Notes: generated from the sequence alone by a model not told the origin. Positions 32,155-62,683 are shown, numbered from the stretch's first letter. The stretch is 64,000 bases of DNA from Candidatus Termititenax sp. (GCA_020719045.1 DYQY01000001.1:58516-122515); one strand, 5' to 3'. Translations and numbers: made by a program.

Positions 32155-33689
32155 TGCTTTCTTGGAAAAATCGGCTCTGGTTGATTTAGCATTCTGTCTT
32201 TAGTAAAGAATCCCCAAGTAAATGGATTTTGAAGCCTCTCTTCTTCTGATATATTTAATTGTTTGTAAAATAACGCTGTAACTGTAGGCATAAAAGGACT
32301 CAACCATGCTGTCACAATTCTTAGCGTTTCAATTAAATGAACCATCACTGTTGCTAGTTTCTCCATATTACCCTCTTTTTGCAATGTCCAAGGAGCCATC
32401 TCCTCAACAAACTTGTTAGCCCTTCTTATGACTGTAAAAATCTCCTCAAGCGCTATAGATAACTTAAAGGCATCGATCTTTGCAGGAATGCTGGATTCTA
32501 AGGCAATTACCATTTTCTTTAAACCCAACTCTTCCTCTGAAAATAAAGCATCGTTCGCTGATGGAACCTTAAGATCAAAGTACTTCTTTGTCATATTTAA
32601 AGTTCTATTTAGTAAGTTTCCATAATCATTAGCAAGGTCGCTATTGAATCTTTGCTTCATTGTTTCGTCTGTATAAGAACCATCTAACCCAAAAACCATT
32701 TCTCTTGATATATAGTATCTAAAAGGGTCTACACCGTATTCGTCAATAATAGCAAAAGGGTCTAATACATTACCCTTGGACTTTGACATCTTTTCTCCGC
32801 CTTGATAAATAAAGCCATGACCAAATACATGTTCTGGTACCTCTACTCCCATAGCCATTAACATTGCAGGCCATATTACCGCATGAAACTTGAGAATATC
32901 CTTACCTATTAAATGTACACTTGCTGGCCAATATCTTTCAAAAAAAGCATTATCTTTTTTATACTTAATGCCTGTTAAATAATTTAATAACGCATCAAAC
33001 CAAACATAAACGTAGTGTTTTTTTTCAGTATTCTCTAACTGTGGGAACTCTATTCCCCAGCTTATTGTTGTCCGACTAATACAAAGGTCTGTTAAGCCAC
33101 TTTCAACAAAACTAATAACTTCATTTTTTCTGCTTTCTGGTAATACAAAGTCTGGAACTTTCTTAATGTGGTCCAAAATCTTTTGTTGAAACTCAGATAA
33201 TCTAAAGAAATATGCTTCTTCTTGAAGCATTATTACTTCTCTTCCACAATCAGGGCATTTGCCATCCACTAATTGAGTTTCTGTAAAATATGCTTCACAA
33301 GGTCTACAATAAAGACCTTCATAGGAACCTAAATATATATAACCATTATCATATACTTGCTTTATTGTATCCTTAACAATTTCTTGATGCTCAATGTCTG
33401 TTGTTCTTATGAAACGATCATTAGAGATGTTTAGCTTTACCCAGAGTTCTTTAAACCTTAAGACAACACTATCAACTAATTCTTTTGGTGTTATTCCTTT
33501 TGCTTCAGCTGCTTTTTCTATTTTCTGACCATGCTCGTCTGTACCTGTTAGGAAAAAAACATCTTTACCTCTAAGCCTGTAGAACCTTGCTAAAATATCT
33601 GCAATTATTGTTGTGTAACAGTGGCCAATGTGGGGAATATCGTTAACATAATAAATAGGGGTCGTGATATAAACTGAATCCTTTACCAC
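32145..33689 (-). CDS. metG: Methionyl-tRNA synthetase (short form)
   Basis: YITTPIYYVN, HIGH, GTDEHG and KMSKS. Confidence 0.97.
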   Translation of the reverse strand: MVKDSVYITTPIYYVNDIPHIGHCYTTIIADILARFYRLRGKDVFFLTGTDEHGQKIEKAAEAKGITPKELVDSVVLRFKELWVKLNISNDRFIRTTDIEHQEIVKDTIKQVYDNGYIYLGSYEGLYCRPCEAYFTETQLVDGKCPDCGREVIMLQEEAYFFRLSEFQQKILDHIKKVPDFVLPESRKNEVISFVESGLTDLCISRTTISWGIEFPQLENTEKKHYVYVWFDALLNYLTGIKYKKDNAFFERYWPASVHLIGKDILKFHAVIWPAMLMAMGVEVPEHVFGHGFIYQGGEKMSKSKGNVLDPFAIIDEYGVDPFRYYISREMVFGLDGSYTDETMKQRFNSDLANDYGNLLNRTLNMTKKYFDLKVPSANDALFSEEELGLKKMVIALESSIPAKIDAFKLSIALEEIFTVIRRANKFVEEMAPWTLQKEGNMEKLATVMVHLIETLRIVTAWLSPFMPTVTALFYKQLNISEEERLQNPFTWGFFTKDRMLNQPEPIFPRKQCI

Positions 33690-36600
33690 TAATGGACAAC
33701 TCCTATCATTCTTACAATTTTAGTTGGCTTACCACTTGAGGCAAATGGTGCCGCCTCTATAACTGCAAAGTATCCACCTTTTGAAACAAATTGTCCAGAC
33801 TCATTCCTTCCGTCCCAATCAACTGAACAAAAGAATCCAGAGCCACTTGTTGCACCCTCTTTAGTAATTGCAGTGCTATCAAATCTTCTTACAAAATGCC
33901 CTAATGAATCATATATTGTTATACTTGCATCAATGTTTTGATTTAAAGAGAAAACTATTTTTGTAGTTTGAAATGCTGAATAAAAAGGATTTGGATAATT
34001 AGATACATTAAAAATAACTTCACTAGTATTAGTAGTCATAATCCTGTCACCTGAATCAAGATACTCGCTTGATGCTTTCGCTCCATTAACCGCCTTTACT
34101 CTATAGGCATACGGTGTATCATACAACACGCTCACATTGCTCCACTCACGATCATTTGCGTTTTTCGTTGCCACCTTCTGCCACACTAGTGACTGCCCTG
34201 CAAGCATCTCTACAATATAATAATCAATGACAGACTCTGCCTCAATAAACGGAGACCAAATCAAATCATGTCTATTTTCATCCCATTTAGCAATAACATG
34301 TAAACGATTATCATTTCCTACCCATGGAGGAGTAACGTCAGTATGAAATGCAAAGTCTCCTGTTATTGACCAATACTCTGTACCAGTTAATGTAGACTTA
34401 ACCTTTGCAGAAATATTGTAAGTTGTGTTATCAGCTAAAAACTTTAATGAATCAGTTATTGTAATACTTACTGTTGCTAACTGAATATCTTTACTGTTGG
34501 TTACATTATTTACTGAAACATACCCACTATAAATATCAGAACCACCAGATGTTGAACCTATTTTAACCAAGATAGTATCAACACCATTATTCTGAACATT
34601 AACTGATGTAGAATATCTAAAACTTATATTCCTGTGACTATTGATGTATGCATCCCCTGAAATAATAGGTCTAGTTGGTTGATAGTAACTCACAACCTGA
34701 ATCTTATTTGTTGTTACCTCTATCTCATTTAAAATTGTAGCATAAGCTTTCTCACCAGGAATTTGAAAACTAATGTTTCCTGATGCTGTTTCAGTGTTCA
34801 CAAACTTAATTTTATATGAAGCTTCTTTTCCAACATTACTTCCAATATATGGCCGAATAACTAATGCAAAATAATTTTCTGTTGCTAATATTCTTGGATT
34901 AGTTTGTGGATTTGAGCTATCTGCAAGCGTTATTCTTATTCTTTCTCCTGAAGGGGCTCTATCAATCTGAGTAACAGATACTTCCTCTGTATATGCGTAA
35001 TCATCATTCGCTTGAGAACCAGAATATCTATAAAGCTTAACCTCTACGTCACTATTAGCATTTGAATTTAATCTTAAGGTTCCTTGGTCTCTATATAAAT
35101 CTAAATAGTATAGTTTTGGATATTCTGCTGACCCTTTATAATCTAAGGATAATTTAAATTTAAGTAAATTTATGCTCTGATCTTGATAAACGTAACTCTC
35201 CGGATTTTTAAAGGTCTCAATCGAAACTTTTGAAACATAATAATCAGAATCAAAAGTAATTGTTCTAACTGGAAATTCTCCAGTATTTACCATCTTATCT
35301 CCACTCCTAAACTGAAAAGAGTCAGCGCTGACAATCTCAAATGAAAATTTCTTACCAGCACCTAATGTCTTATCTGTTTCAACCACAACATAAAACTCAG
35401 GATCTGTTGACCCAACATTAACTGGATAAGGAAATACAACATTAATTGTTGTTTGACTAATATTTAAAAACTTATCTGTTCCTGAACTCACAAGTAAATC
35501 ATCCACATCATACAGTTGATTTCCATTATCTTTATAAATAGCCACTCTTGTAATCTTAGTTGGATTAATATCTATTGAATAATTAAACTTCAATGTCAAA
35601 CCTGTCCAAAGAGCACCTTCAGCAGCTACTCCACCTGAACCAGCAGTTTCAGCAAGCCATGAACGCAACGCAAATTTCTTAGCAACAAAACTAACACCAG
35701 AATGAATTTCTCTGGTAACAATTAAAGACTCATCCTGTTCCTTTGGAATATAGGAAATATTTAACCTGGTTTTAGAAATATTAAAACTTGCAACAATCCC
35801 ATCCAGTGGTTGATTAGCCGGAGGAATAACAGACTCATAGTATAAAACATTAAACGCATCAACTGTCGCAAATCCAAAACCAATATACTCATTTTTTATA
35901 TCAGCACCAGAATACACATCTACAACCAAAAAGACCGTTGTGGTTGTCTGTGTGTCTACTATTTTCTCAGTAAACGATATATTCATAGTGTCTCCTACTC
36001 CTTGATAAGGCTTAGAAGCCATTAATAAATCTGTACTTTCACTAAATAATCCATCCTTGTCTTGATCATAGTATATATGAAACTTTTCAATTTTAGTTAC
36101 ATGCATATTATCAAGCTGTAAATTAACACCAGAAACATGAACATCTCTGCTGGATGCTTTTAGTTCAGCGTATATAACTGGTATTTTCTGCTTACCTACT
36201 TCTAAATTGTTAAAACTATATGCAGACACATGCTCACTTCTGCCTCTCGCAAAATAATCACCATAACTAAGAACCCTTAGTGGTCTTGCAAAAGGAGACC
36301 TTCCTATTAGCTGATTTCCTGCTAAATCCATAACATTAATACTAATATTCTTACCAATAGCCTGCTCTCTTGTATCAATAATACTTCTATCAACAGTTAC
36401 TCTATATAAATAATCATTACCCATTGTTCCAAGATAAGTCATATCTAGACTTCCCACGATGCTCCCATTCTCTGAAACTAACCAACAATTATGAGTTGTT
36501 GACAAATCTATTTGTTCGTTAAAAAACATTGTAACAACTATTGGATTTACTAAGTCTATATTGGTAGGTTGAATTACTGTCTCATAGGTAGGAGACTGGG

Positions 36601-39600
36601 AGTCATAAGTGATAAACCATCTAGCTGGCTCATCACATCTTGTTTGTGCATCAGCAACCCAAGCAATTATTTCTTTACGTCCTTGAGATGTGTCAGTAAG
36701 TATATGTTGTGCACTAAAACTTGCTACATATTCACCAGCAACGTCTGGCCATATATTATACTGATCCCATCTAGGGTTACCATAGTAATTATCAAATATA
36801 TAATATTTTCGATAGTCGTCACTGATAATGTTTCTACTTAATACATAGTTTATTGTTAAACTATTAGTATAATTACCATTTCCCCTATTAGAATAAACCT
36901 CAAACCTTGGAGTTGCTGGTATTGTTGAGTCAATAACAAAAGAACCACCAAGCGCTACAGATGTCGTTATATTCTTTGCTTCGTCTGTAACAATTACTTC
37001 AAAAATAGCATTATAGGTGGATTTTTCCTCTCCCAATAAATTAAACAAATTGTAAGTTGCCATCCAGTACGCTTTATATGCTGAACTATTCTCATTTGTG
37101 GCATCCCACCTATCTGAACTAATTAAAAATGGCACTAATATACTAACTGTTATAGGAGTAATAAAATCGTTTGCTGGATAAATCACAAGTCTCCAACTTG
37201 GTGTTACTGCTGCTCTTTCATAATAATTAATATCTTCTCCACTAAACGTCGTATTATGAGTAATTTCCATCTGTGCTCGATACAATATCTTTGATAGCTT
37301 CAGCCCTTCATATTGAACCTTTGTATCATCTGGTCTAATCATAACTTTTGGCTCAGACTGATCTAAAACAATACTACAAGTAACAGCCTCCATTGTATTG
37401 ATGCCTTTATCATTTATTACCCACAAATGTAACGTTCTTAAACCGTTAATAGAATATACATCTCCTTTTGGGAAAATATAGAGAATTAAATATTTTCTAG
37501 CACCATTAACAACTACATAGCTTTCAGTTGCAAGTGATTGCCAAGTTCTTCCAGCAGCTATTGCATAATTTACAGAAGAAGCATCTTCTCCCTCAAGAAT
37601 TAAATACTGATTTATACTAGTTCCAACAATAAAAGAAATACTTACAACATCAGCATTTGTTAAATCATTTCTTCCAGTTTCAATATCTTGCACATTAAAA
37701 GACTGAGGAAAAGGTACTTGCTCTGCTCCTAATTTAAAGAAATTACTATAACCATTGAACGTTGTTGCAATATTACCTGCGTCATCAACGAGTAGCACGC
37801 TGAAATGATGAACCCCATCATTCAAAACACCATTCATTGTTACAGAATACTCCCACGACCTTCCAAGCCCTCCAGTACAATTAATTGTAACAAGCTCACT
37901 TGCCCCGCCACTTATTGTATATCTCACAAACGGCGTAACAACTATTTCCTCTGAAACATCTAATGTAATATATAGAATATCCTGACTATTTATAAAAGGC
38001 ATAACATCATTACCAGACTGAGATCTCATTATTATATCTACAACTGGCCTAACTATATCAACTTTAATACCTCTTGTTGCCACGGTGCTGTTCCCAGCAT
38101 TATCCCAAACCTTAACATAACAATCAATTGTTGAATGGTTATTAGCCGAAACCAGTACCTGTGTAGCCACTAATACCATATCCAAGGTTGCGCTATACTC
38201 CGTTTGACCTGTCGATGCTTTTACTCGAACACTCTTAGATGGAAAACCACCAGCATCCACTGCAGTCCAAGTTAAAACAACATTTTCTGTGTTTAGCCAT
38301 CCACTTAACGGAAATGTTTTACTATATTCTTGGTTAAAAACTGAATAAATTGTCCCCTCAAGTTCAATCTGAGGTGATACAAATAATGAAGCCACAGGAG
38401 TTTCAACATCCACTTTTAATGGTACTGACTTAGTCGCTAAGTTACCTGCTCTATCTCTCACCTGAATATAAACATTCTGTGTTGCAAAATTATTTGGACT
38501 TACATATATTCCAGAATAACTTAATTCATATTGGAAGCTACTCCACACATCAACACCATCTGAACGAACCCTGTAAGGATTGTTGTGTAAGCTTCCTGCT
38601 CCATCATTTGTCTGATCCCAATTAAGATTAATTGTTGGGGTTGCATGCCAACCAGATTGTGGCCATATACCATCCTCCCCTGAATCAGAATCTGCTAGTA
38701 TTCTTGCTTCAAAATTAATTGCTGGAGCATCTGTATCAACATAAACATTTGTATTACTTAAAATAATATTACCAGCTCTATCAGAAATTGCTCCCACGAT
38801 ACTTCGTTGAAGTGCACCCGCATTTGCTATAAATAAAGTGGCATTTTGTGAGTTAATTGTACCGTTGGTAAAATACGTATCTGCTTCTCCCTTTAAAAAA
38901 TATCCATCAGTTCTAACATCAAATGTGTCAGCAACGGTTAATCCTGGTGCTACATAAAAAGAAAATGAAACAATATTCCTATTATACCAACCTGCATCAG
39001 GCGTCACCTGAAGACCAGCAACATAATTACATGTTATCAGCCTCAAAGTGAAAGAACCTAAAGGAGGCACCGAGTCAACGGTTACAAGCATACTCTTTGT
39101 TAATATGTTTCCTGCTCTATCTATATATCTAGTCTGGATAACATTTACTGTGTTAGAGCTAACTGGTAAATTTGTTATATATAGGTTAGATGTTGGTTCA
39201 CCCCAAGGATTATCATTTACCTTGAACTGAAACGGCCTGTTCCTTGCTGTTGGATCAGCCTGACTAAACATAATCATAAAAGTAATTTCAGGATTATCAT
39301 AATATCCCAATTCAGGATCTAATCCATCATTATTTGAGTCTGAGTCATACGACAAGTCAACCTGAAAATCATTTGGTGCAACTATATCAGAATATACGCT
39401 GTCATTAATTTCAGTAAAATTACCGGCTTTATCTACTAATAGCGCCTTAAAATTAATTGGTGTAGCATCGTTAGCGATTAAACTGACATTATTGAAACTA
39501 ATATTTTGTTCCAAAACGGATTGTATCGTTGGAACCACCGATTGGCCAATATACAACATTACCCTATGAAGTAAACCATTCTCTACCACAGAATCCCAAG

Positions 39601-41542
39601 TAATACTTAGATCTAGGGTTGCCTGATTGTACCATTTTGCTTCTGGAGTAACCCCCTCTGGTTTAGTTTCACACGCATCAAACGATATTTTAAAGTTTGT
39701 TGGCACAGGATCTTGCAAATCAACAAAAACTTGAGCAGTAACCGATGACATATTCCCTGCTTTATCTACAGCCATTAATAAAAATACATTATTAGTAATA
39801 TCAGCATCAGGAGTAACAACTACATCACTTACAATCTTTACCCAATCTGAAGTTGTAGCATTACTTGTGCCGACAAGATATCTATATTGAAAAGCCTTAT
39901 CTCTAAGTTGACCAGCATCTTCAGCATCACAACCCCATTTAACGTTTACATCGTTATACCAACCAATTTGCGGTAAAATATTTACTAGTACATTTTCTTT
40001 TCCGGTATAGTCTGGTACTAGTTGTAAACTTATGGTTGGCGCTATTGTATCAACTTTGATAGTTCCATATGATGTCTTAATATTCCCTGCTCGGTCTATT
40101 GCTCTAACCCATATACTACTTGCATTATTTCCCTTTGCATCAACTGTTACCCATGCCTGACTTGCAGACTGAGAAACCCCTAACATCACGTCGTCAGCCA
40201 CTAACGCTGACCAAGTACTCCAACCTTCACTCTTAAACTGATAAGCTAATATACCAGAACTATCAACTGGTTCAGCCCAGCTAAAACTCACTGTTTGATC
40301 GTTATACCATCCTTCCTCTGGTGCTATTTGGTCAGCTTCATTAATTAAGTCTGGCTGAACAGTAACAACAAATTCATTTGGTTCTGTAACATCAATTGTC
40401 ACTTTCACGCTCCTTGTCACAAAGTTATAGACATTATCAAAAACATGAACCACCAAATCTATATTTCCTTGAAGAGGAACATCATTATAGCTAAAAGTTA
40501 CTAAAAATGGTGCTGTTCTTGAAGTGAAAAATCCTGTTGAAGAATTAAATGGGTCAACCACCCAAATATTACTACTGATACCACTTTGCACTGTACCACT
40601 TGAGTCATTAGGGACTCCTTGTAAATTAAAACTAACTGTTATTCTGTTAAAGTAGCCTGCTAATGGCTTAATTATTGTTCCTTCACTATCAAACTCTGTT
40701 GCAGCAACATACTCAAGTGCCGCAAAAGCTACATTTGGATTAGTGTTATCTACCTCAATTAAAAAATATGACTTAGATGCTTCATCATCAAGAAGAGGTG
40801 CTCCATCAATATCTACAGATATCCACACTAAACTAGCTGCACTAGTAGGTATCGAAAAGTTAGTATAAATAAACTTGCCCCTATCACCTATACTTGCTAC
40901 TCCCTTTAAGTCACCAGAAACAAATAATTCTAAACTAAGTGGGATATGAGATGAAGGGAACACTTCTGGATCACCATAATAGTGAATTGTACCTGTTATG
41001 CTTAGCCCAGCATCAGGATAGCTACTATTATTAAGCCCTCCTTTAAATAAATGCCTATTACTTATTTTTGTACTATATTTTGAATTTGCATTAATTGTTA
41101 TTGTTTCTACTACATACTGGTCGTTAAAAACCACAGGTATTACCCATGGTAAGGGGTCTGCATCACCTACATCAACGGATATTGTATATTGAATGCCTCG
41201 CTGGAAGCTTCTATCGCTCCTTGGAACAAACCTAACGCGCCATAAATCTGTCGCATACTCCACGTTTGTTGTCAAAAACTGATTGCTTCCTTTAACGAAG
41301 CCCCACTTACCAGAAGCATTTGCTGTAATAACAACAACCTCAACACCATTATTATCTCTTATATCTACTGTAATATTATCGTCATAAGCATCTGTAACGT
41401 TTACCGAAATATACATATCTTGATATGCATGTATGTATTGGCTATCTGCTTTATCATGCGCCCAAAGCTTTAAATCATTTGACTGCAATGCGAAAGACAT
41501 TGCACTAAAAATAAAAAGAACAAACAAAATTAATTTTTTCAT
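33689..41542 (-). CDS. 2617-aa secreted Ig-like repeat surface protein with FN3-like module and C-terminal FlgD-Ig/T9SS-CTD-like domain
   Basis: Signal peptide (MSFA), many D(R/K)AGN Ig-type motifs, C-terminal NYPNPF..ITIYDSLGHFVR..WDGRNESG..GGYF. Confidence 0.85.
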   Translation of the reverse strand: MKKLILFVLFIFSAMSFALQSNDLKLWAHDKADSQYIHAYQDMYISVNVTDAYDDNITVDIRDNNGVEVVVITANASGKWGFVKGSNQFLTTNVEYATDLWRVRFVPRSDRSFQRGIQYTISVDVGDADPLPWVIPVVFNDQYVVETITINANSKYSTKISNRHLFKGGLNNSSYPDAGLSITGTIHYYGDPEVFPSSHIPLSLELFVSGDLKGVASIGDRGKFIYTNFSIPTSAASLVWISVDIDGAPLLDDEASKSYFLIEVDNTNPNVAFAALEYVAATEFDSEGTIIKPLAGYFNRITVSFNLQGVPNDSSGTVQSGISSNIWVVDPFNSSTGFFTSRTAPFLVTFSYNDVPLQGNIDLVVHVFDNVYNFVTRSVKVTIDVTEPNEFVVTVQPDLINEADQIAPEEGWYNDQTVSFSWAEPVDSSGILAYQFKSEGWSTWSALVADDVMLGVSQSASQAWVTVDAKGNNASSIWVRAIDRAGNIKTSYGTIKVDTIAPTISLQLVPDYTGKENVLVNILPQIGWYNDVNVKWGCDAEDAGQLRDKAFQYRYLVGTSNATTSDWVKIVSDVVVTPDADITNNVFLLMAVDKAGNMSSVTAQVFVDLQDPVPTNFKISFDACETKPEGVTPEAKWYNQATLDLSITWDSVVENGLLHRVMLYIGQSVVPTIQSVLEQNISFNNVSLIANDATPINFKALLVDKAGNFTEINDSVYSDIVAPNDFQVDLSYDSDSNNDGLDPELGYYDNPEITFMIMFSQADPTARNRPFQFKVNDNPWGEPTSNLYITNLPVSSNTVNVIQTRYIDRAGNILTKSMLVTVDSVPPLGSFTLRLITCNYVAGLQVTPDAGWYNRNIVSFSFYVAPGLTVADTFDVRTDGYFLKGEADTYFTNGTINSQNATLFIANAGALQRSIVGAISDRAGNIILSNTNVYVDTDAPAINFEARILADSDSGEDGIWPQSGWHATPTINLNWDQTNDGAGSLHNNPYRVRSDGVDVWSSFQYELSYSGIYVSPNNFATQNVYIQVRDRAGNLATKSVPLKVDVETPVASLFVSPQIELEGTIYSVFNQEYSKTFPLSGWLNTENVVLTWTAVDAGGFPSKSVRVKASTGQTEYSATLDMVLVATQVLVSANNHSTIDCYVKVWDNAGNSTVATRGIKVDIVRPVVDIIMRSQSGNDVMPFINSQDILYITLDVSEEIVVTPFVRYTISGGASELVTINCTGGLGRSWEYSVTMNGVLNDGVHHFSVLLVDDAGNIATTFNGYSNFFKLGAEQVPFPQSFNVQDIETGRNDLTNADVVSISFIVGTSINQYLILEGEDASSVNYAIAAGRTWQSLATESYVVVNGARKYLILYIFPKGDVYSINGLRTLHLWVINDKGINTMEAVTCSIVLDQSEPKVMIRPDDTKVQYEGLKLSKILYRAQMEITHNTTFSGEDINYYERAAVTPSWRLVIYPANDFITPITVSILVPFLISSDRWDATNENSSAYKAYWMATYNLFNLLGEEKSTYNAIFEVIVTDEAKNITTSVALGGSFVIDSTIPATPRFEVYSNRGNGNYTNSLTINYVLSRNIISDDYRKYYIFDNYYGNPRWDQYNIWPDVAGEYVASFSAQHILTDTSQGRKEIIAWVADAQTRCDEPARWFITYDSQSPTYETVIQPTNIDLVNPIVVTMFFNEQIDLSTTHNCWLVSENGSIVGSLDMTYLGTMGNDYLYRVTVDRSIIDTREQAIGKNISINVMDLAGNQLIGRSPFARPLRVLSYGDYFARGRSEHVSAYSFNNLEVGKQKIPVIYAELKASSRDVHVSGVNLQLDNMHVTKIEKFHIYYDQDKDGLFSESTDLLMASKPYQGVGDTMNISFTEKIVDTQTTTTVFLVVDVYSGADIKNEYIGFGFATVDAFNVLYYESVIPPANQPLDGIVASFNISKTRLNISYIPKEQDESLIVTREIHSGVSFVAKKFALRSWLAETAGSGGVAAEGALWTGLTLKFNYSIDINPTKITRVAIYKDNGNQLYDVDDLLVSSGTDKFLNISQTTINVVFPYPVNVGSTDPEFYVVVETDKTLGAGKKFSFEIVSADSFQFRSGDKMVNTGEFPVRTITFDSDYYVSKVSIETFKNPESYVYQDQSINLLKFKLSLDYKGSAEYPKLYYLDLYRDQGTLRLNSNANSDVEVKLYRYSGSQANDDYAYTEEVSVTQIDRAPSGERIRITLADSSNPQTNPRILATENYFALVIRPYIGSNVGKEASYKIKFVNTETASGNISFQIPGEKAYATILNEIEVTTNKIQVVSYYQPTRPIISGDAYINSHRNISFRYSTSVNVQNNGVDTILVKIGSTSGGSDIYSGYVSVNNVTNSKDIQLATVSITITDSLKFLADNTTYNISAKVKSTLTGTEYWSITGDFAFHTDVTPPWVGNDNRLHVIAKWDENRHDLIWSPFIEAESVIDYYIVEMLAGQSLVWQKVATKNANDREWSNVSVLYDTPYAYRVKAVNGAKASSEYLDSGDRIMTTNTSEVIFNVSNYPNPFYSAFQTTKIVFSLNQNIDASITIYDSLGHFVRRFDSTAITKEGATSGSGFFCSVDWDGRNESGQFVSKGGYFAVIEAAPFASSGKPTKIVRMIGVVH
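38060..40393 (-). repeat. Seven tandem Ig-like repeats of about 110 aa
   Basis: Recurring DxxxP..P(E/Q)xGW(Y/H)N..W..D(R/K)AGN units, starting DVTEP, DTIAP, DLQDP, DIVAP, DSVPP, DTDAP, DVETP. Confidence 0.75.
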
Positions 41543-41555
41543 TCTTCCCCCATAC

Positions 41556-42254
41556 TTAACTTATTACATTATTCACAAAAACTTCTTGCAACATTATATT
41601 TATTTCAATTCTACGATTCTTAGCTCTATTCTCTTCCGTATCATTAGGCATCATAGGACGATACTCTCCATATCCTACTGCCTGTATTCTCATGGGCGAT
41701 ATATCAACCTTCTCCACAAAAAACTTTATAACAGAATATGCTCTATCAAAAGAGAGGTCCCAATTAGAGTCGTACTTCTCTGTTTTAATAGGTATATTAT
41801 CAGTATGCCCTTCTATCACAATTTTATTATCGGTTTTTTTTAATATTTCTCCAATGTCTTTTAAAATCTCAAGTGCCTCTTCTTTTAACTCTGCTTTCCC
41901 TGTTTCATAAAGAATCGGGGAGGCTAATACAACTCTAATTTTACTCTCTTCCACCATTACATTTAAAAAATCACTCAATTTTTGTTCTTGAATGTATTGC
42001 TTAACTTTATCAACAACATTAATTCGCTCTTCATCTGGATTCTTCTCAGCTATCTTTGGCTGTAAATACTGTCCCTGCAACGAAACCCTAATTGACTCAA
42101 ACACCTGCTGTTGCTCACTCTCAGAAACATTGTTCATGATAAATGTGTACAACAACAAAAACAAAATCATTAAAAAGGAATTTAAGTCTGCCCATATAGT
42201 AAAGAAACTACCACCTTCACCGCCTCCTGATTTTTTTCTCTTTATTTTGAGCAT
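41556..42254 (-). CDS. motB: MotB-like stator subunit (TM with conserved Asp plus OmpA-like peptidoglycan-binding domain)
   Basis: FFTIWADLNSFLMILF; IEGHTD, NWDLSFDRA and NRRIEI. Confidence 0.9.
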   Translation of the reverse strand: MLKIKRKKSGGGEGGSFFTIWADLNSFLMILFLLLYTFIMNNVSESEQQQVFESIRVSLQGQYLQPKIAEKNPDEERINVVDKVKQYIQEQKLSDFLNVMVEESKIRVVLASPILYETGKAELKEEALEILKDIGEILKKTDNKIVIEGHTDNIPIKTEKYDSNWDLSFDRAYSVIKFFVEKVDISPMRIQAVGYGEYRPMMPNDTEENRAKNRRIEINIMLQEVFVNNVIS

Positions 42255-42259
42255 TCTGT

Positions 42260-43045
42260 TTACTCTTTTCCACTCTCTTGTTTTTTCTCTTTCTTTGCGT
42301 TATTTGATAAAAATCCTTTCAAGTAGGTCTCAACCTTAATTGGTATTTCACCTTTTGCAATCATTATTATTCCTTCAATCATTATTGTTTTACCCATTAA
42401 CTCCACATCGTTTCTCTTTTCTAACTTCTTTGCCATTGGAGACATCATAAATCCAGAAATAAAGACACCATAAAGAGTAGTTAATAGTGCTAATGCCATG
42501 GATGGACCCACCGTCTTAGGATCTGTCATGTTCTGTAGCACCTGGAGTATCCCAACAATGGTTCCAAACATACCAGTCAAAGGAGCAATTGTTCCCATAA
42601 AATTCATGCCTTCAGTATTTTTTGTATGTCTTGCATCTGTTTCCTGAAGTTCATTTTCTAAAACAACCCTTATAAAATCGGGGTGTAATTTGTTTACTAT
42701 CATTAGAAGACCATTATTTAAAAATCCATCACCAAAACCTTTGCCGGCATCTTCTAGTGCTAATCTACCTTCTTTCTGAGATAAAATTGATAGCTCAACA
42801 AGCTTATCAACTATTTCCGAGTTCGAAGGAAATTTATGTTTACCTAATAGTGCTCTAAAAGATGATAGAACACCTTTTAACTCAGATGCTGATGATGACA
42901 CAATAAATAATGTTATTGTTCCACCTATTACCATTATTGCTGACTCTAACTGCATATAAGTTGCAGGATGTACAAATATATCTGGCACAGAAAGCACCAA
43001 AACCAAAAACGTTCCTATCATACCAATAAAAAAGAAAATATCCAT
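42260..43045 (-). CDS. motA: MotA-like stator subunit
   Basis: IGGTI, KEGRLALE, APLTGMFGTIVG..NMTDP..VGPSMALALLTTLYG and GEIPIKV. Confidence 0.9.
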   Translation of the reverse strand: MDIFFFIGMIGTFLVLVLSVPDIFVHPATYMQLESAIMVIGGTITLFIVSSSASELKGVLSSFRALLGKHKFPSNSEIVDKLVELSILSQKEGRLALEDAGKGFGDGFLNNGLLMIVNKLHPDFIRVVLENELQETDARHTKNTEGMNFMGTIAPLTGMFGTIVGILQVLQNMTDPKTVGPSMALALLTTLYGVFISGFMMSPMAKKLEKRNDVELMGKTIMIEGIIMIAKGEIPIKVETYLKGFLSNNAKKEKKQESGKE

Positions 43046-43067
43046 GTTGTCCCCCCTAGACTACAAA

Positions 43068-43832
43068 TTACTTTTTAGCTTTTGCTACATCATCTCCTAG
43101 TATTGGCTCTATGAAACCATCTACTTCTAGGTTCTTTGAGTACTCAATAATGTACTGCTGTGATTTCTTGATTTCAGTCTTTGAATATTTATTTTTCCCG
43201 AATTCAATACCTTGTTGAACCATATTCTTTATACCTTTTGGCATAACCCCATACAATTTTTCTATCTTATCTTCTGGCATTTGGCAAAAAGCTATCGATA
43301 AAACATCTGAAGGTATATCTGAAAAAATCCTTGCAAAGTCTTTATCTGATACATTAAATAAATCTTCAAAAAACAACATAATTTTTCTAAATGAAGAAGC
43401 TGTTTCTGGATATCGAGAGGCTACTGTATCATTTAACAATGTCTTTTGATCAATATCTAAAAACTCAACTATTTTAGCAAGAACGTATCTTCCACCAAAC
43501 TGCTCTGTTAATAGTTTTCTCAATATTTTATCAAATTGCTCTATTTCTTTCTTTGTAAACTGAATAAGCGAAAGCATCTCGGCTATTATCTGAGCTCTCA
43601 TTTCATCATCAAACTCTTCCATAATTCTCTGTGCAACATCTGGCTCAACAGAAGATATAACTAAATATAAATATTTCATATTCTCTTCTTTTGATTTAAT
43701 AATCTTTTTTAAAACGTGTGCTGTATGATAGGCATTCTCTTTGTTTATATATGCAAAGTGTTCTTTCTTGACTTGGTCAATATTAACAGTTTCATTTCCA
43801 ACTAAATTTATTATATCTTGTTTATCTACCAT
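43068..43832 (-). CDS. FliG-like protein (middle and C-terminal domains only)
   Basis: FGGRYVLAKI..YPETASSFRKIMLFFEDL (MFxF-like)..QQYII; start placed at ATG 43832, 1 nt after the upstream stop. Confidence 0.75.
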   Translation of the reverse strand: MVDKQDIINLVGNETVNIDQVKKEHFAYINKENAYHTAHVLKKIIKSKEENMKYLYLVISSVEPDVAQRIMEEFDDEMRAQIIAEMLSLIQFTKKEIEQFDKILRKLLTEQFGGRYVLAKIVEFLDIDQKTLLNDTVASRYPETASSFRKIMLFFEDLFNVSDKDFARIFSDIPSDVLSIAFCQMPEDKIEKLYGVMPKGIKNMVQQGIEFGKNKYSKTEIKKSQQYIIEYSKNLEVDGFIEPILGDDVAKAKK

Positions 43833-43833
43833 T

Positions 43834-45441
43834 TTATAATTCAATAAACCCTTCTCGCTCTAAGTGCTGAGCGTAACTCAATACCTTCTGCCTTGCTTCC
43901 TCAACATCAAACTTAGATGCTGTGTTAGACTTTAGCGCTAACCATTGATCAACCATTGCTTGAATGCCTCTTGCCAATGTGTTGATAACTTTTCTTTGTC
44001 TCTCTGGATCAACATGTACTAATGACGTTGCAATTACCTCGGTATCCATATCGCTAAATACCCTCGCAATAACATTTGTATCAAGTTTTAATAAATCATC
44101 AAATAAGAAAATTAGAGCATTAACTTCATCTGCAATACCTGGATATTTAGATGAAATAATGTCCAATATCTTTTTCTTATCTTCTCCCGGTATTCTTTCA
44201 ATAATTAACTTGAGCCTATTTCTTCCCCCGAATAAATATTCTATATTTTCTTTTATCTCGTTTTCCAACACTTGCATCTCACTATCAGGATAATGCTGTA
44301 ATGACATAATATTATTTACAATTTCTGCCTGTATTTTAGCTGGATACTCAACCAAAATAGAAGACGCTATCTTAAATGGCAAGCAAGACATTACAACAGC
44401 TATTGTCCTTGGAGAGGCTTGCTGAAGCGCTATCTTAACTTGTAATAAAAATTTTAACTTAAATACATTTTCCTCATCAATAAAATTAAAATATCTTTCA
44501 CCATTACCTAAAATACCTTTCTGCATTTCAAGTAACTTTTCTTCTTCTTCTTGTTTTTTAGCTTCTTCTTCTTTTTTCTTTTTCTGCTCTGCATCTCTTT
44601 TCTGTTTTTCAGCTGCGCTCATTGGCACTCCTGCCTCACCAGCATCTGAACCTTTGCCCTCACCTGCTCCAGCACCCTCACCAGCGCCAGCTCCAGAACC
44701 TGAACCACTTCCTGCTCCAGCAGCACCTTTTCCGGATCCTGCTGATTCTTTTTCTGCACCTGCTCCATCTTCACCTGCTCCAGACTTATCTTTCTTGCCT
44801 CTATTTGGTAGTATTTTTAGTAACACAATGCCAATAATTAATAACAACAATACAATAACTGATATAACGATTATTGGAGTCCAGTCGTTTTTCTTTTTAG
44901 AAGTTACGCTTGATGCTGATTTATCAGACTTCTGCATTGTGGAAAAATTTTCTCTTAATATTGTGAATTTATCGCCTGCATTTTCATCTAACTCTAAAAA
45001 CTTTGTAACAAAAGTTTTTGCCGCTCTCAAGTCACCCATTTTAATTTTATTATCTAAAATTAGTACAACATCTTTATTATTAACAATAGGTGGTCTCTGA
45101 ACTATTTCATAGTTAAGTGGAACGCCTTCTCCGCCACCACCCTGGGTAAGAAACTTGAGTGATGGAATACCTGGAACAACTGTCTGTTGTGAGCCACCAG
45201 ATCCCCTTGAGTCCATTCCATCAATTTGAGGTAAAGATGTATACCTTATCTCGAACTTTTCTGATTCGCCTAATAGTGAAATATAAACAATAGAGTTATC
45301 TGGACCAAGGATCCTATCTAACGCTGATTGAACTGTATCTTCTAAGTGCTTTTGGTTATCCAATAATGATTGTGCACTAACTGGCACATAAAAAAATAAG
45401 ACGAATAACCCCAAAAGCAATATTTGTTTTGCTTTTACCAC
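43834..45441 (-). CDS. Fusion protein: signal peptide, FliF/RBM3-like periplasmic domain, TM, Gly/Ala linker, FliG(M+C)
   Basis: LEDTVQSALDRILG..VVPG..VVLILD..GDKFTI resembles FliF C-terminal ring domain; SPRTIAVVMSCL..GG..IFLFDDL..DVEEARQK resembles FliG. Confidence 0.7.
   Translation of the reverse strand: MVKAKQILLLGLFVLFFYVPVSAQSLLDNQKHLEDTVQSALDRILGPDNSIVYISLLGESEKFEIRYTSLPQIDGMDSRGSGGSQQTVVPGIPSLKFLTQGGGGEGVPLNYEIVQRPPIVNNKDVVLILDNKIKMGDLRAAKTFVTKFLELDENAGDKFTILRENFSTMQKSDKSASSVTSKKKNDWTPIIVISVIVLLLLIIGIVLLKILPNRGKKDKSGAGEDGAGAEKESAGSGKGAAGAGSGSGSGAGAGEGAGAGEGKGSDAGEAGVPMSAAEKQKRDAEQKKKKEEEAKKQEEEEKLLEMQKGILGNGERYFNFIDEENVFKLKFLLQVKIALQQASPRTIAVVMSCLPFKIASSILVEYPAKIQAEIVNNIMSLQHYPDSEMQVLENEIKENIEYLFGGRNRLKLIIERIPGEDKKKILDIISSKYPGIADEVNALIFLFDDLLKLDTNVIARVFSDMDTEVIATSLVHVDPERQRKVINTLARGIQAMVDQWLALKSNTASKFDVEEARQKVLSYAQHLEREGFIEL
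44620..44780 (-). repeat. Gly/Ala/Glu low-complexity linker (GAGEG-type repeats)
   Basis: GAGEDGAG..GAGSGSGSGAGAGEGAGAGEGKGSDAGEAG. Confidence 0.8.
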
Positions 45442-45524: not shown

Positions 45525-45567
45525 TATGTAAGCAAAAAAGCAGATAATCTGCCCTCTTGCTTACATA
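45525..45567 (-). terminator. Hairpin downstream of ssb (probable terminator)
   Basis: tatgtaagcaa/ttgcttacata outer stem, gcagat/atctgc inner stem, tttt following on the minus strand. Confidence 0.6.
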
Positions 45568-52460: not shown

Positions 52461-52645
52461 CTGCTTCTTCACCTCCGTTTAAACTGTTACTGTGTTGTGT
52501 TTTGACACAAGGACATTAATTATAACTTAACATTCTACACTTAATTAATAAAAGGAGCAACAATATTTGACGCACCATAATTTTGTTGGGAATCCATAAT
52601 TTTAGTTACGATAATACTATATATTTAAATATCAGGAGTCGTGTA

Positions 52646-57129: not shown

Positions 57130-57153
57130 TTATTGTTTCTTCCTTTCTATGCC

Positions 57154-59508
<2,355 letters not shown>

Positions 59509-59519
59509 TCATTCTCTCC

Positions 59520-60326: not shown

Positions 60327-60328
60327 AT

Positions 60329-62463: not shown

Positions 62464-62683
62464 ATTACTACTCCTTATTATTTTTATATATTCAACCCTT
62501 ATTCATCATAGGTGTTTATATCTAGAACAACTTTAATTTTATCGATTGTTATCATGAAATAATCTCCACAACTTATAAGATTATATTCCTAGTGTTATCA
62601 ACAAAATTATAATTATTTAACTTATCCCCTTTTTATCTAAACTTATTAATAAGTTATTAACAACATTATCAACAAAATAAAAT
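62464..62683. other. Probable oriC (dnaA-dnaN intergenic), AT-rich, with variant DnaA boxes
   Basis: TTATCAACA at 62595 and 62666, TTATTAACA at 62654, TTATCCCCT at 62622; position is typical of Firmicutes-type origins. Confidence 0.6.

What the first reader, a model, noticed from the sequence alone, without database searches (positions are those of the whole stretch)
33689..45441. Orphan rotary-motor operon: FliF-FliG fusion, FliG2, MotA, MotB and a giant surface protein, with no flagellar genes
Seen: five co-directional genes with gaps of 1, 22, 5 and 13 nt, separated from ssb by a hairpin. No fliM/N, flhAB, fliPQR, fliI, rod, hook or flagellin genes are in the window. The ion-conducting features look intact (MotB WAD Asp, MotA GTIVG and TTLYG). 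Established: MotA5B2 stators turn a FliG ring anchored on FliF, and the T9SS uses a different stator (GldLM) with a ring to secrete and move CTD adhesins. Inference: a minimal ring-plus-stator machine repurposed for adhesin export, surface motility or mechanosensing, possibly undescribed.
Basis: partly seen in the sequence, partly recalled or inferred. Interest (0 to 1): 0.92.

Follow-up and report, generated by a model that had tools for sequence, protein, structure and literature searches.

The report
Flagellar-type motor module beside giant surface protein
A Margulisbacteria genome carries a flagellar-type ion motor and a fused ring/rotor protein in a gene cluster that is linked, in very distant uncultured bacteria too, to a giant secreted protein, which suggests an undescribed cell-envelope machine rather than an ordinary flagellum.

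Summary
The five genes are real and sit as described. g1 (535 aa) has a signal peptide, a FliF RBM3-like periplasmic domain, one TM helix, a disordered/charged linker and FliG middle and C domains. g2 is FliG_MC only. MotA and MotB are full-length flagellar (PomAB-like) types. The giant protein (2617 aa) is Sec-secreted and has a weak T9SS-like C-terminal domain.

"Orphan" holds only for the window. A MAG whose g1 is 80% identical also carries flgD/E-like, fliM/N/O/P/Q/R and flhB, and a FlgE-like gene lies 8–9 kb from g1 in two other species.

The adhesin linkage is conserved. An exhaustive HMMER search shows g1 belongs to a wide unnamed family (145 representatives at E≤1e-30). In a distant lineage (about 20% identity) the operon is: homologous giant protein, PorV/PorQ-family outer-membrane barrel, g1-like, coiled-coil protein, MotA, MotB. 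MotAB followed g1-like in 10 of 10 loci with enough flank. No flagellar genes appeared in 638 kb of those flanks.

Best reading (about 0.5): a flagellum-derived rotor–stator module dedicated to a giant surface protein. Main rival: the rotor/stator of a divergent Margulisbacteria flagellum. I could not test whether canonical fliF/fliG exist in this genome. I found no description in the literature.

The parts
45525..45567 (-). Intrinsic-terminator-like hairpin after ssb. It marks the upstream boundary of the transcription unit.
   Evidence: 20-pair stem followed by a T run; sequence read.
43834..45441 (-). g1, 535 aa: a membrane-anchored FliF(RBM3)–FliG(MC) fusion.
   Evidence: Pfam FliG_M and FliG_C. 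The profile matches T. maritima FliG at E 2e-31 and FliF weakly at 6e-3. AF2 and Foldseek results. The family is conserved.
44932..45372 (-). g1 residues 24–170: periplasmic ring-building domain of FliF RBM3/collar type. Its fold is alpha-beta-beta, a loop carrying the invariant PGIPSL motif, then beta-beta-alpha-beta.
   Evidence: Core pLDDT 94–97. Foldseek hits FliF S-ring structures 6sd1, 6scn, 7cg7 and 8z4d at E 1e-5 to 1e-4 with TMt 0.5–0.56, and SpoIIIAG at 2e-2. Homologues score above threshold for Pfam YscJ_FliF_C.
44812..44883 (-). g1 residues 187–210: the single transmembrane helix. Residues 1–23 (45373..45441) form a signal peptide or N-terminal anchor.
   Evidence: Hydrophobic stretch in the translation; helix 188–210 in the models.
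44512..44811 (-). g1 residues 211–310: cytoplasmic G/A/S/E-rich disordered linker followed by an E/K-rich long helix (276–310). It stands where FliF-C and FliG_N would be in a flagellar rotor.
   Evidence: pLDDT below 50 for 215–271 and a helix at 276–310. Linker length varies between homologues.
43837..44511 (-). g1 residues 311–535: FliG middle and C-terminal domains. The Gly-Gly linker and the MFXF-like hinge (IFLF) are kept. EHPQ is replaced by ASPR. On the torque helix, R281/D288/D289 are replaced by G492/Q499/W500.
   Evidence: FliG_C matches 1qc7 at TMt 0.90 and 8ucs_H (FliG_C bound to MotAB) at TMt 0.85.
43068..43832 (-). g2, 254 aa: a soluble FliG_MC-only paralogue with no FliG_N. It is a duplicate of the cytoplasmic part of g1, starting at the shared 'F-x-[FY]-I' motif.
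   Evidence: Pfam. T. maritima FliG E 6e-12. 25% identical to g1 residues 317–534. Present next to g1 in all Riflemargulis-type loci whose contig continues past g1.
42260..43045 (-). motA, 261 aa: flagellar (PomA/MotP/MotA) type stator A subunit with the large cytoplasmic loop.
   Evidence: PomA E 3e-40 over the full length. NCBIfam flagellar MotA/MotP/PomA at about 1e-50, against TolQ/ExbB at 1e-6 or weaker. PomA K89, E96 and E97 correspond to K, E and D.
41556..42254 (-). motB, 232 aa: stator B subunit with the TM Asp (WAD), a plug region and an OmpA-like peptidoglycan-binding domain.
   Evidence: Pfam MotB_plug and OmpA. NCBIfam MotS/MotD/MotB at about 1e-40. Sequence.
33689..41542 (-). Giant secreted protein, 2617 aa: Sec signal peptide, about seven 'GW[YHL]N' Ig-like modules (residues ~390–1200), and a conserved C-terminal third.
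   Evidence: Full-length orthologues in the Riflemargulis clade. Homologous giants occur in g1-like operons of distant lineages.
33695..35068 (-). Giant protein residues 2159–2616: the region conserved with the giants of the distant g1-like operons. It contains an FN3-like domain and a FlgD_ig / T9SS-CTD-like terminal beta-sandwich (residues ~2516–2597).
   Evidence: HMM of 10 distant giants matches it at E 2.7e-31. Pfam FlgD_ig 30.2 bits, cut-off 27. Por_Secre_tail 19.3 bits, below the 23 cut-off; PorU C-terminus E 2.7e-9. Titin FN3 0.004.

Best explanation
g1, g2, motA, motB and the giant gene encode a flagellum-derived but non-canonical rotor–stator module dedicated to a giant cell-surface protein.

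**Shown**
- g1 joins a FliF-RBM3-type ring-building periplasmic domain, through one TM helix and a long spacer, to a FliG_MC rotor domain.
- MotA and MotB are complete flagellar-type, peptidoglycan-anchored ion channels.
- The g1-like/MotAB pairing, and the pairing with a homologous giant secreted protein, recur in lineages that share only about 20% identity. There a PorV/PorQ-family outer-membrane barrel lies between the giant and g1-like.

**Inferred**
- g1 oligomerises into an MS-ring-like ring. Its cytoplasmic FliG_C domains, supplemented by g2, are pushed by MotA5B2 units driven by H+ or Na+ flow.
- The movement of the ring, or the energy it transduces, is passed through the periplasmic RBM3 ring to the conserved C-terminal third of the giant protein. 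The outcome would be export or anchoring of that protein, or its movement on the surface, giving adhesion or gliding.
- This would be analogous to GldLM with PorV and CTD adhesins in the T9SS, and to SiiAB with SiiE.

The module coexists with flagellar genes, at least in close relatives. It is therefore an addition to the flagellum, not a remnant of one.
For: **Domain anatomy**
- Pfam, PDB-profile and AF2/Foldseek results.
- YscJ_FliF_C scores above threshold in homologues.

**Stator**
- Full-length PomA-like MotA with the key motifs.

**Family size**
- 145 representatives at E≤1e-30, mostly full-length g1-like.
- Sources named: Margulisiibacteriota, Elusimicrobiota and unclassified bacteria.

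**Linkage with MotAB**
- MotAB lies adjacent or within 4 kb in every Riflemargulis-type locus with enough flank on that side, the divergent L004/L022 excepted.
- It is adjacent in L003 and in the same cluster in L024.
- It is present in 10 of 10 distant loci with at least 6 kb downstream.

**Linkage with the giant protein**
- Present in 10 of 11 Riflemargulis-type loci with flank.
- Present in 12 of 19 distant loci, where PorV-like is directly upstream of g1-like in 21 of 26.
- The giants are homologous: E 2.7e-31 and 2.4e-58, while the control proteins give no hit.
- A third arrangement, L104, has PorV-like, then SLH-TPR-FliG_MC, then a 5005-aa homologous giant.
- PorV_fam scores 154.5 bits against a cut-off of 90.

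**Separation from flagellar genes**
- No flagellar structural or export genes in 638 kb around the distant loci.

**Departure from canonical rotor parts**
- g1 and g2 lack FliG_N and RBM1/2, the EHPQ FliM-binding motif, and the canonical torque-helix charges.
Against: - All evidence is genomic and structural prediction. No ring, rotation or interaction has been demonstrated.
- Within the Riflemargulis clade the giant's position is no better conserved than that of metG, tatD, ssb and HU. The case for linkage therefore rests on the distant lineages.
- No PorV-like gene is in the window or in the Riflemargulis loci.
- No outer-membrane translocon candidate was identified anywhere.
- One subgroup (L059, L068, L075) and L003 have g1-like with MotAB but no giant.
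- L104 has no MotAB within 10 kb.
- Close relatives carry flagellar genes, and L003 is flanked by rod and L/P-ring genes. A flagellar role is therefore not excluded.
- A FlbD-like gene, a flagellar stator partner, accompanies MotAB in some loci.
- The torque-helix charges are altered, so productive MotA–FliG coupling is unproven.
Confidence: 0.5

Rival explanations
1. The block is the rotor and stator of a divergent Margulisbacteria flagellum. g1 is the lineage's fused, reduced FliF–FliG (MS ring plus the top of the C ring), g2 is an extra FliG, and MotAB are the flagellar stators. The other flagellar genes are scattered across the genome. The giant gene is merely a syntenic neighbour.
For: - MAG GCA_037141875.1 has both the g1-g2-giant locus and flgD/E-like, fliM/N/O/P/Q/R and flhB.
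- A FlgE-like gene lies 8–9 kb from g1 in L005/L008 and in L021.
- That flagellar cluster lacks the motAB block usually found between flgE and fliM.
- MotAB are flagellar-type.
- No canonical FliG with FliG_N appeared among the 150 best HMMER hits.
- All flagellar proteins of this clade are highly divergent.
- The window encodes an MCP.
- Flagellins and FlgV are reported from Margulisbacteria (PMC7018530, PMC11607428).
Against: - g1 lacks RBM1/RBM2, which are needed to house the export gate.
- It also lacks FliG_N, the EHPQ FliM-binding motif, and R281/D288/D289.
- The same architecture sits in operons with a giant protein, PorV-like and coiled-coil genes, with no flagellar genes in 638 kb of flanks.
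- In L003 the homologue coexists with a conventional rod and L/P-ring gene set that would need a conventional FliF.
- The top-150 list cannot exclude canonical FliG, because 5446 hits exist in total.
Confidence: 0.22
2. g1 and g2 are accessory parts of a conventional flagellar motor. They would form a membrane ring whose FliG-like domains recruit, park or brake MotAB units, acting as a stator scaffold or clutch. The giant protein would be unrelated, or would form an envelope scaffold around the motor.
For: - MotAB adjacency is universal.
- FlbD-like genes occur in the cluster.
- L003 lies among flagellar genes.
- TPR proteins and large scaffolds are known accessories of complex motors (general knowledge: PflA/PflB, FlcA).
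- The altered torque helix could bind MotA without transmitting torque.
Against: - No flagellar genes flank the distant operons.
- A Sec-secreted, 2600-aa, Ig-repeat protein with a CTD-like end, together with a PorV/PorQ-family barrel, fits surface-protein handling better than a motor scaffold.
- An RBM3 ring with FliG_MC is rotor-like, not stator-like.
Confidence: 0.13
3. The module does not rotate. It would be an ion-flux or envelope-stress (mechano)sensor, in which engagement of MotAB with the FliG-like domain signals the state of the giant surface protein to the cytoplasm.
For: - One family member is fused to HisKA and HATPase_c (P0338).
- C-terminal TPR domains in most distant members suggest docking of protein partners.
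- The torque-helix charges are altered.
Against: - Only one kinase fusion was seen.
- The window's g1 and g2 have no output domain.
- A complete stator with plug and peptidoglycan anchor, plus a ring-building domain, are hallmarks of torque generation.
Confidence: 0.08
4. There is no functional unit. The genes are tightly packed neighbours in a streamlined genome, and the recurrent giant-gene adjacency is chance.
For: - metG, tatD and a PilC-like gene follow without a terminator and are equally syntenic.
- Giant genes are common in uncultured lineages.
Against: - Three different gene orders in three deep lineages keep homologous giants beside membrane-anchored FliG_MC genes.
- MotAB linkage was found in 10 of 10 loci.
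Confidence: 0.05

Closest known systems
Bacterial flagellar motor core: FliF MS ring, FliG, and MotAB/PomAB stator
   Same: - The periplasmic domain has the FliF RBM3/collar fold.
- FliG_M and FliG_C folds are present, with the Gly-Gly linker and an MFXF-like hinge.
- MotA is PomA-like over its full length.
- MotB has the TM Asp, the plug and the OmpA-like domain.
- An engineered FliF–FliG fusion still assembles an MS ring whose S-ring structure was solved (PDB 8z4d; PMC11481574).
   Different: - No RBM1/RBM2, no second cytoplasmic FliF tail and no FliG_N.
- EHPQ is replaced by ASPR.
- R281/D288/D289 are replaced by G/Q/W.
- There is an extra FliG_MC-only paralogue (g2).
- The genes are not in a flagellar operon.
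- They are linked to a giant Sec-secreted protein and, in relatives, to a PorV-family barrel.
Type IX secretion / Bacteroidota gliding: GldLM (PorLM) motor, PorV, and CTD cargo such as SprB
   Same: - An ion-driven 5:2-type motor is genetically tied to a very large surface protein with a C-terminal beta-sandwich.
- A PorV/PorQ-family outer-membrane barrel lies in the operon of distant relatives (154.5 bits, cut-off 90).
   Different: - The motor is MotAB with a FliF/FliG-like ring, not GldLM with PorKN.
- No SprA/Sov, PorU or PorZ was seen.
- The CTD match is sub-threshold (19.3 bits against 23).
- No PorV is in the window.
- The host phyla lie outside the FCB group.
Salmonella SPI-4 T1SS: SiiAB (MotAB-like proton channel) with the giant adhesin SiiE
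   Same: - A peptidoglycan-binding MotB-like / MotA-like proton channel is encoded with, and needed for the function of, a giant Ig-repeat adhesin (bioRxiv 10.1101/641415).
   Different: - SPI-4 has an ABC transporter, a membrane-fusion protein and a TolC-like protein, and no FliF/FliG-like ring.
- SiiE has a T1SS signal, not a Sec signal peptide.
- The window has no T1SS genes next to the block.
SpoIIIAG and other RBM ring builders (SctJ/SctD, SpoIIIAH)
   Same: - The ring-building motif carries an inserted loop, as in FliF RBM3 and SpoIIIAG (Foldseek 5wc3, E 9e-3 to 2e-2).
   Different: - Those rings are static conduits and have no FliG domain or stator.

Membership tests
FliF (flagellar MS-ring protein) | Two TM helices flanking RBM1, RBM2 and RBM3/collar (Pfam PF01514 YscJ_FliF plus PF08345 YscJ_FliF_C) | tested here: not met
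   g1 gives no PF01514 or PF08345 hit. Only an RBM3-like fold of about 150 aa is found. PF08345 scores above threshold only in distant homologues.
FliF (flagellar MS-ring protein) | RBM3/beta-collar ring-building fold | tested here: met
   Foldseek to 6sd1, 6scn, 7cg7 and 8z4d: E 1e-5 to 1e-4, probability 1.00, TMt 0.5–0.56. The collar-equivalent loop (residues 70–108) is low-confidence in the monomer model.
FliG (flagellar rotor/switch protein) | FliG_N domain that binds the FliF C-terminal tail | tested here: not met
   Neither g1 nor g2 has a FliG_N domain. Instead, g1 is covalently tethered to the membrane.
FliG (flagellar rotor/switch protein) | FliG_M and FliG_C armadillo folds with the Gly-Gly linker and the MFXF hinge | tested here: met
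   Pfam above threshold. G405-G406 are invariant. 'IFLF' and 'MLFF' align to MFVF. TMt is 0.85–0.90 for FliG_C.
FliG (flagellar rotor/switch protein) | EHPQR motif (FliM binding) and the charged torque-helix residues R281, D288 and D289 (E. coli numbering) | tested here: not met
   EHPQ is ASPR in g1 and ENMK in g2. R281/D288/D289 are G/Q/W in g1 and G/Q/G in g2. NCBIfam fliG scores 65 and 54 bits against a cut-off of 226.7.
Flagellar-type MotAB/PomAB stator ('FIT' clade of PMC12505986) | MotA with four TM helices and a large cytoplasmic torque-generating loop; conserved TM3/TM4 prolines and channel motifs | tested here: met
   End-to-end alignment to PomA, E 3e-40. Flagellar MotA/MotP/PomA models score about 1e-50, against TolQ/ExbB at 1e-6 or weaker.
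Flagellar-type MotAB/PomAB stator ('FIT' clade of PMC12505986) | MotB TM Asp, plug, and OmpA-like peptidoglycan-binding domain | tested here: met
   Pfam MotB_plug 31 bits (cut-off 24) and OmpA 72 bits; 'WAD'.
Flagellar-type MotAB/PomAB stator ('FIT' clade of PMC12505986) | Scores above the curated equivalog cut-offs, and canonical rotor-facing charges (MotA R90/E98; PomA R88, K89, E96, E97) | tested here: inconclusive
   The best NCBIfam score is 172 bits against a cut-off of 340. PomA R88, K89, E96 and E97 correspond to Q, K, E and D.
Flagellum as a system | Export gate, rod, hook and filament genes in the same genome | tested here: inconclusive
   None is in the 64-kb window. The related MAG GCA_037141875.1 has flgD/E-like, fliMNOPQR and flhB. 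The rest of this genome could not be read.
Type IX secretion system | Cargo with a type A/B CTD (TIGR04183) | tested here: inconclusive
   Por_Secre_tail scores 16–19 bits against a cut-off of 23. The PorU C-terminus matches at E 2.7e-9. Pfam FlgD_ig scores 30.2 bits against a cut-off of 27.
Type IX secretion system | PorV/PorQ-family outer-membrane barrel | tested here: not met
   A custom HMM finds none in the window or the Riflemargulis loci. The feature is met only in distant relatives' operons: L091 scores 154.5 bits (cut-off 90), and L104 scores 80.7.
Type IX secretion system | GldL/GldM (PorL/PorM) motor, PorK/N ring, SprA/Sov translocon | tested here: not met
   No such Pfam or NCBIfam hits among the window ORFs scanned. 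The genome outside the window was not testable.
SiiAB-type T1SS for giant adhesins | ABC transporter, membrane-fusion protein and TolC-like genes next to the adhesin; a C-terminal T1SS signal | tested here: not met
   The neighbours are metG, tatD and a PilC-like gene. The giant protein has an N-terminal Sec signal peptide.

The most novel reading that the evidence does not exclude
A previously undescribed class of trans-envelope machine, found in Margulisbacteria, Elusimicrobiota-like and other uncultured diderms. A flagellar-type MotAB stator turns a ring made of a FliF-RBM3/FliG-MC fusion protein. This ring powers the export, anchoring or surface movement of one giant CTD-bearing adhesin, and in some lineages works with a PorV/PorQ-family outer-membrane protein. 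It would be a non-flagellar use of the flagellar rotor–stator pair, convergent with T9SS gliding.
Probability: 0.4. Interest if true: 0.92.

Novelty: categorically new. Interest (0 to 1): 0.82.

Why it matters
**A possible exception to the flagellar rule.** FliG and flagellar-type MotAB are regarded as specific to the flagellum. The recent stator survey PMC12505986 treats the 'FIT' clade as flagellar. A conserved operon that couples them to a giant secreted protein and a PorV-family barrel would be, as far as I could find, a new non-flagellar use of the rotor–stator pair.

**What it would bear on.**
- How the flagellar motor evolved in modules, since an RBM3 ring with FliG_MC and MotAB would form a minimal torque unit.
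- How giant adhesins are handled outside the Bacteroidota.
- How uncultured Margulisbacteria attach or move.

**Testability.** The fusion protein gives a simple target for ring assembly and stator docking experiments.

**If the rival is right.** A flagellum whose MS ring lacks RBM1/2 and whose FliG lacks FliG_N and the canonical torque charges would still be a notable variant.

Tried and rejected
- **Word-indexed homologue search with g1.** It found only 26 Margulisbacteria clusters and suggested a tiny lineage-specific family. The exhaustive HMMER search overturned this.
- **Canonical FliG in Margulisbacteria.** I inspected the short and medium-length hits. All were g1- or g2-type, or fragments, so the question stays open.
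- **Window ORF 52583..53563.** I tested whether it is the FlgE-like gene found at the syntenic site in L008. It is not.
- **The 985-aa neighbour in L024.** I tested it for homology to the giant. It is an unrelated coiled-coil protein.
- **PorV-like genes.** A custom HMM found none in the window or the Riflemargulis loci.
- **The 288-aa ORF between fliP and fliQ.** I considered it as the missing RBM1/2 part of a split FliF. It is a secreted beta-rich protein with no Pfam hit.
- **Metagenome scan.** It failed with broad alignments and worked only with a 7-sequence subset.
- **Supplementary files of the FlgV paper.** They hold no Margulisbacteria entries.
- **Literature searches.** Searches for a description of the family or system found none.
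- **Zorya/ZorAB defence and ExbBD/TolQR readings.** I rejected these because MotA aligns end-to-end with PomA and only weakly with TolQ/ExbB models.

Full report
**1. Observation**

The minus strand between 45441 and 33689 carries five tightly spaced genes:

| Gene | Coordinates | Size |
|---|---|---|
| g1 | 45441..43834 | 535 aa |
| g2 | 43832..43068 | 254 aa |
| motA | 43045..42260 | 261 aa |
| motB | 42254..41556 | 232 aa |
| giant ORF | 41542..33689 | 2617 aa |

- The gaps are 1, 22, 5 and 13 nt.
- A 20-bp-stem terminator-like hairpin (45567..45525) follows ssb.
- No comparable terminator lies inside the block or before metG, tatD and the PilC-like gene downstream. The giant's stop shares nt 33689 with the metG start.
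- Pfam gives FliG_M and FliG_C for g1 and g2, MotA_ExbB for MotA, and MotB_plug and OmpA for MotB. For the giant it gives only a C-terminal FlgD_ig.
- The other window ORFs of 100 aa or more are housekeeping genes, including the dnaA-dnaN-recF-gyrBA origin region. One is an MCP. None is a flagellar structural or export gene.

**2. What g1 is**

- Two AlphaFold models were made. The second used a 54-sequence alignment and reached mean pLDDT 81, with the periplasmic core at 94–97.
- The models show, in order:
  - a signal peptide or anchor;
  - an alpha-beta-beta / loop / beta-beta-alpha-beta periplasmic domain (residues 24–170);
  - one TM helix (188–210);
  - a disordered G/A/S/E-rich stretch;
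  - a 35-residue E/K-rich helix;
  - FliG_MC (residues ~311–535).
- Foldseek places the C-terminal half on FliG. Hits include 1lkv, 4fhr, and 8ucs_H, which is FliG_C bound to MotAB (TMt 0.85).
- Foldseek places the periplasmic domain on the RBM3/collar (S-ring) part of FliF, at E 1e-5 to 1e-4 and TMt 0.5–0.56. SpoIIIAG follows as a weaker hit.
- A profile of the family hits FliF weakly at the sequence level (E 6e-3, FliF residues ~407–526).
- Distant family members score above the Pfam threshold for YscJ_FliF_C.

'FliF–FliG fusion' is therefore right in kind, but g1 is a minimal version. RBM1, RBM2 and FliG_N are missing.

Conserved and altered features of the FliG part:
- The Gly-Gly linker and the MFXF-like hinge are conserved.
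- The EHPQ FliM-binding motif is replaced by ASPR.
- The torque-helix charges R281/D288/D289 are replaced by G492/Q499/W500. D498-Q499-W500 is conserved throughout the Riflemargulis-type family (Q499 invariant).
- g2 duplicates only the cytoplasmic FliG_MC part and shares these changes.

**3. The stator**

- MotA aligns end-to-end with Vibrio PomA (E 3e-40). It also matches MotA structures from other flagellated species.
- NCBIfam flagellar MotA/MotP/PomA models score about 1e-50, although below the equivalog cut-offs. TolQ and ExbB models score 1e-6 or weaker.
- PomA K89, E96 and E97 are kept as K, E and D, and the 'LLTTLYG' channel segment is identical to PomA. The coupling ion cannot be assigned from this.
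- In the terms of PMC12505986 this is a flagellar-type stator, not a generic ion transporter.

**4. Organism and flagellar genes elsewhere**

- The window is contig CDCLUB010000015.1 of MAG GCA_974328665.1.
- Close homologues of g1 come only from Candidatus Margulisbacteria of the Riflemargulis/GWF2_35_9 type. These make 26 clusters and 9 species representatives.
- A FlgE/F/G-like gene lies on the same contig as g1 in two species: GCA_028715625.1 and GWF2_35_9.
- This gene belongs to a Margulisbacteria-specific family of about 30 clusters.
- In other contigs that family heads a cluster of flgD-like, flgE-like, fliM-like, fliN-like, fliO, fliP, a 288-aa ORF, fliQ, fliR and flhB.
- MAG GCA_037141875.1 holds both that cluster's flgD-like and flgE-like genes (contig JBAXBT010000113.1) and a g1-g2-giant locus whose g1 is 80% identical to the window's (contig JBAXBT010000031.1). 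The full cluster (L011) and the g1 locus also occur in one ENA metagenome at similar coverage.

'No flagellar genes' therefore describes the window, not the lineage. I could not read the rest of this genome, so the presence of canonical fliF/fliG and of a second motAB is untested. None of the 150 best exhaustive-search hits is a canonical FliG, but that list is far from exhaustive for FliG.

**5. Synteny inside the clade**

There are two arrangements:
- A: clpB, HU, ssb, g1, g2, motA, motB, giant, metG. Seen in the window, L015, L020 and L021.
- B: motA, motB, clpB, HU, ssb, g1, g2, giant, metG. Seen in L005, L006, L016 and L023 (the L023 contig ends within g1).

Points to note:
- The two MotA types share only 31–37% identity, while g1 shares 48–52%. 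They are therefore different stator lineages.
- The giant follows in 10 of 11 loci with enough flank.
- metG, tatD, ssb and HU are just as syntenic, so within this clade synteny alone says little.

**6. The decisive comparison: distant relatives**

*Family size.* An exhaustive HMMER search of 1.84 billion representatives with the g1 profile found 145 proteins at E≤1e-30. Most are full-length g1-like proteins of 470–710 aa. Named sources include Margulisiibacteriota and Elusimicrobiota, and many are unclassified. Longer members add C-terminal TPR repeats.

*Individual contexts.*
- L003: g1-like, MotA, MotB, lying among rod and L/P-ring genes.
- L024: g1-like, coiled-coil protein, FlbD, MotA, MotB.
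- L025: a giant of more than 3200 aa, PorV/UPF0164-like protein with TPR, then g1-like.

*The common operon.* A metagenome scan returned 77 loci. ORF clustering of these gives this order:
1. giant protein (2450–2830 aa);
2. PorV/PorQ-family barrel with TPR (about 540 aa; NCBIfam 154.5 bits against a cut-off of 90);
3. g1-like protein (YscJ_FliF_C, FliG_M, FliG_C, TPR);
4. coiled-coil protein (1000–1600 aa);
5. FlbD-like gene, in some loci;
6. MotA;
7. MotB;
8. rplM.

*Partner frequencies among 39 distinct loci.*

| Partner | Condition on flank | Found |
|---|---|---|
| MotA and MotB downstream | at least 6 kb downstream | 10 of 10 |
| PorV-like directly upstream | at least 1.7 kb upstream | 21 of 26 |
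| Giant upstream | at least 2.5 kb upstream | 12 of 19 |
| Coiled-coil directly downstream | at least 1.2 kb downstream | 21 of 27 |

*Homology of the giants.* An HMM built from ten of these giants matches the window giant at residues 2159–2616 (E 2.7e-31). It matches the L005 giant colinearly over about 820 residues (E 2.4e-58). Two control giant ORFs give no hit.

*A third arrangement.* In another Margulisbacteria class (L104) the order is PorV-like, then SLH-TPR-TM-FliG_MC, then a 5005-aa giant with homologous repeats.

*Flagellar genes in the flanks.* tblastn with flagellar queries found nothing in 638 kb of these flanks.

The linkage is conserved across lineages that share only about 20% identity in g1.

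**7. Mechanism**

Shown:
- a ring-building periplasmic domain joined to a rotor domain;
- a complete peptidoglycan-anchored flagellar-type stator;
- conserved genetic coupling of both to a giant Sec-secreted protein whose C-terminal third is the conserved part.

Inferred:
- g1 forms an MS-ring-like ring, and its FliG_C domains, together with g2, are driven by MotA5B2.
- The periplasmic ring passes this work to the giant protein, for export, anchoring or surface movement.
- In relatives a PorV/PorQ-family barrel takes part.

Known analogies are GldLM with PorV and CTD adhesins, and SiiAB with SiiE (10.1101/641415). I give this reading about 0.5.

Weak points:
- There is no outer-membrane conduit candidate.
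- There is no PorV-like gene in this window.
- Some subgroups lack the giant.
- The rotor–stator charges are altered.
- The lineage carries flagellar genes.

**8. Rivals**

| Rival | Confidence | Status |
|---|---|---|
| (i) Rotor/stator of a divergent Margulisbacteria flagellum with scattered genes | 0.22 | Supported by section 4 and by the absence of motAB from the flgE–fliM cluster. Opposed by the missing RBM1/2, FliG_N and EHPQ, and by section 6. |
| (ii) Accessory stator scaffold or brake of a normal flagellum | 0.13 | See Rival explanations. |
| (iii) Non-rotary sensor | 0.08 | Rests on one histidine-kinase fusion, P0338. |
| (iv) Chance neighbours | 0.05 | See Rival explanations. |

**9. 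Comparison with known systems, and novelty**

The parts belong to known families: FliF RBM3, FliG_MC, PomAB-type stators, PorV/PorQ, and CTD-like giant proteins. The combination fails the membership tests for each known system:
- the flagellar rotor (no RBM1/2, FliG_N, EHPQR or torque charges);
- the T9SS (no GldLM, PorKN or SprA; sub-threshold CTD; no PorV in this window);
- the SiiAB T1SS (no ABC, MFP or TolC genes; a Sec signal instead).

Nine full-text searches found no description of the family or of the operon. If the best explanation holds, this is a new kind of envelope machine. If rival (i) holds, it is a strongly derived flagellar rotor.

Either way the finding merits follow-up. The first step is a whole-genome inventory of the g1-positive MAGs.

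Noticed in passing
window 54664-63940: Chromosomal origin neighbourhood on the minus strand: dnaA, dnaN, recF, a DciA/DUF721-like gene, gyrB and gyrA. G+C falls to 26–28% beyond 60 kb.
   Followed up: partly
window 10495-11940 (-): A methyl-accepting chemotaxis protein gene. It implies a chemotaxis-controlled motility system somewhere in this genome.
   Followed up: no
window 25225-30303 (+) and 30300-31421 (-): A second very large ORF (1692 aa) whose only hit is a sub-threshold match to the DUF2460 / phage distal-tail family. It converges on, and overlaps by 4 nt, a ComGB/PilC/GspF-like platform gene that ends the g1...tatD gene string.
   Followed up: partly
window 33689; 31390-33689: The giant gene's stop shares a nucleotide with the metG start. 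metG, tatD and the PilC-like gene follow without a terminator, so housekeeping genes may be co-transcribed with the motor genes.
   Followed up: partly
L005:5012-6520, L006:5148-6664 versus window 41556-43045: There are two MotAB lineages in the clade. Type A lies between g2 and the giant; type B lies upstream of clpB. MotA identity between them is only 31–37%, although g1 is 48–52% identical. Each locus holds only one type.
   Followed up: partly
L009:9406-16831, L011:802-8279: The Riflemargulis flagellar cluster is flgD-like, flgE-like, fliM-like, fliN-like, fliO, fliP, a 288-aa secreted ORF, fliQ, fliR and flhB. It lacks the flbD-motAB-fliL block that usually lies between flgE and fliM. The ORF inserted between fliP and fliQ has no known family.
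   Followed up: partly
P0338: A g1-like protein (YscJ_FliF_C, FliG_M, FliG_C) fused to HisKA and HATPase_c. In this member a signalling output is attached to the same ring/rotor architecture.
   Followed up: no
L104:3652-22661: Another Margulisbacteria class has an SLH-TPR-TM-FliG_MC protein (886 aa). A PorV-like barrel lies directly upstream, and a second PorV-like/SLH/FlgD_ig protein is nearby. A 5005-aa giant lies downstream. No MotAB occurs within 10 kb.
   Followed up: partly
L091:12360-15398, L024:12045-15002: A 1000–1600-aa E/K/R-rich coiled-coil protein with no family assignment lies between g1-like and MotAB in most distant operons (21 of 27). It has no counterpart in the window, where g2 occupies that position.
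   Followed up: partly
window 52583-53563 (+): A 326-aa ORF with no Pfam hit lies between ychF and the rpsP operon. In L008 the FlgE-like gene lies between those same neighbours. The two proteins are unrelated.
   Followed up: yes
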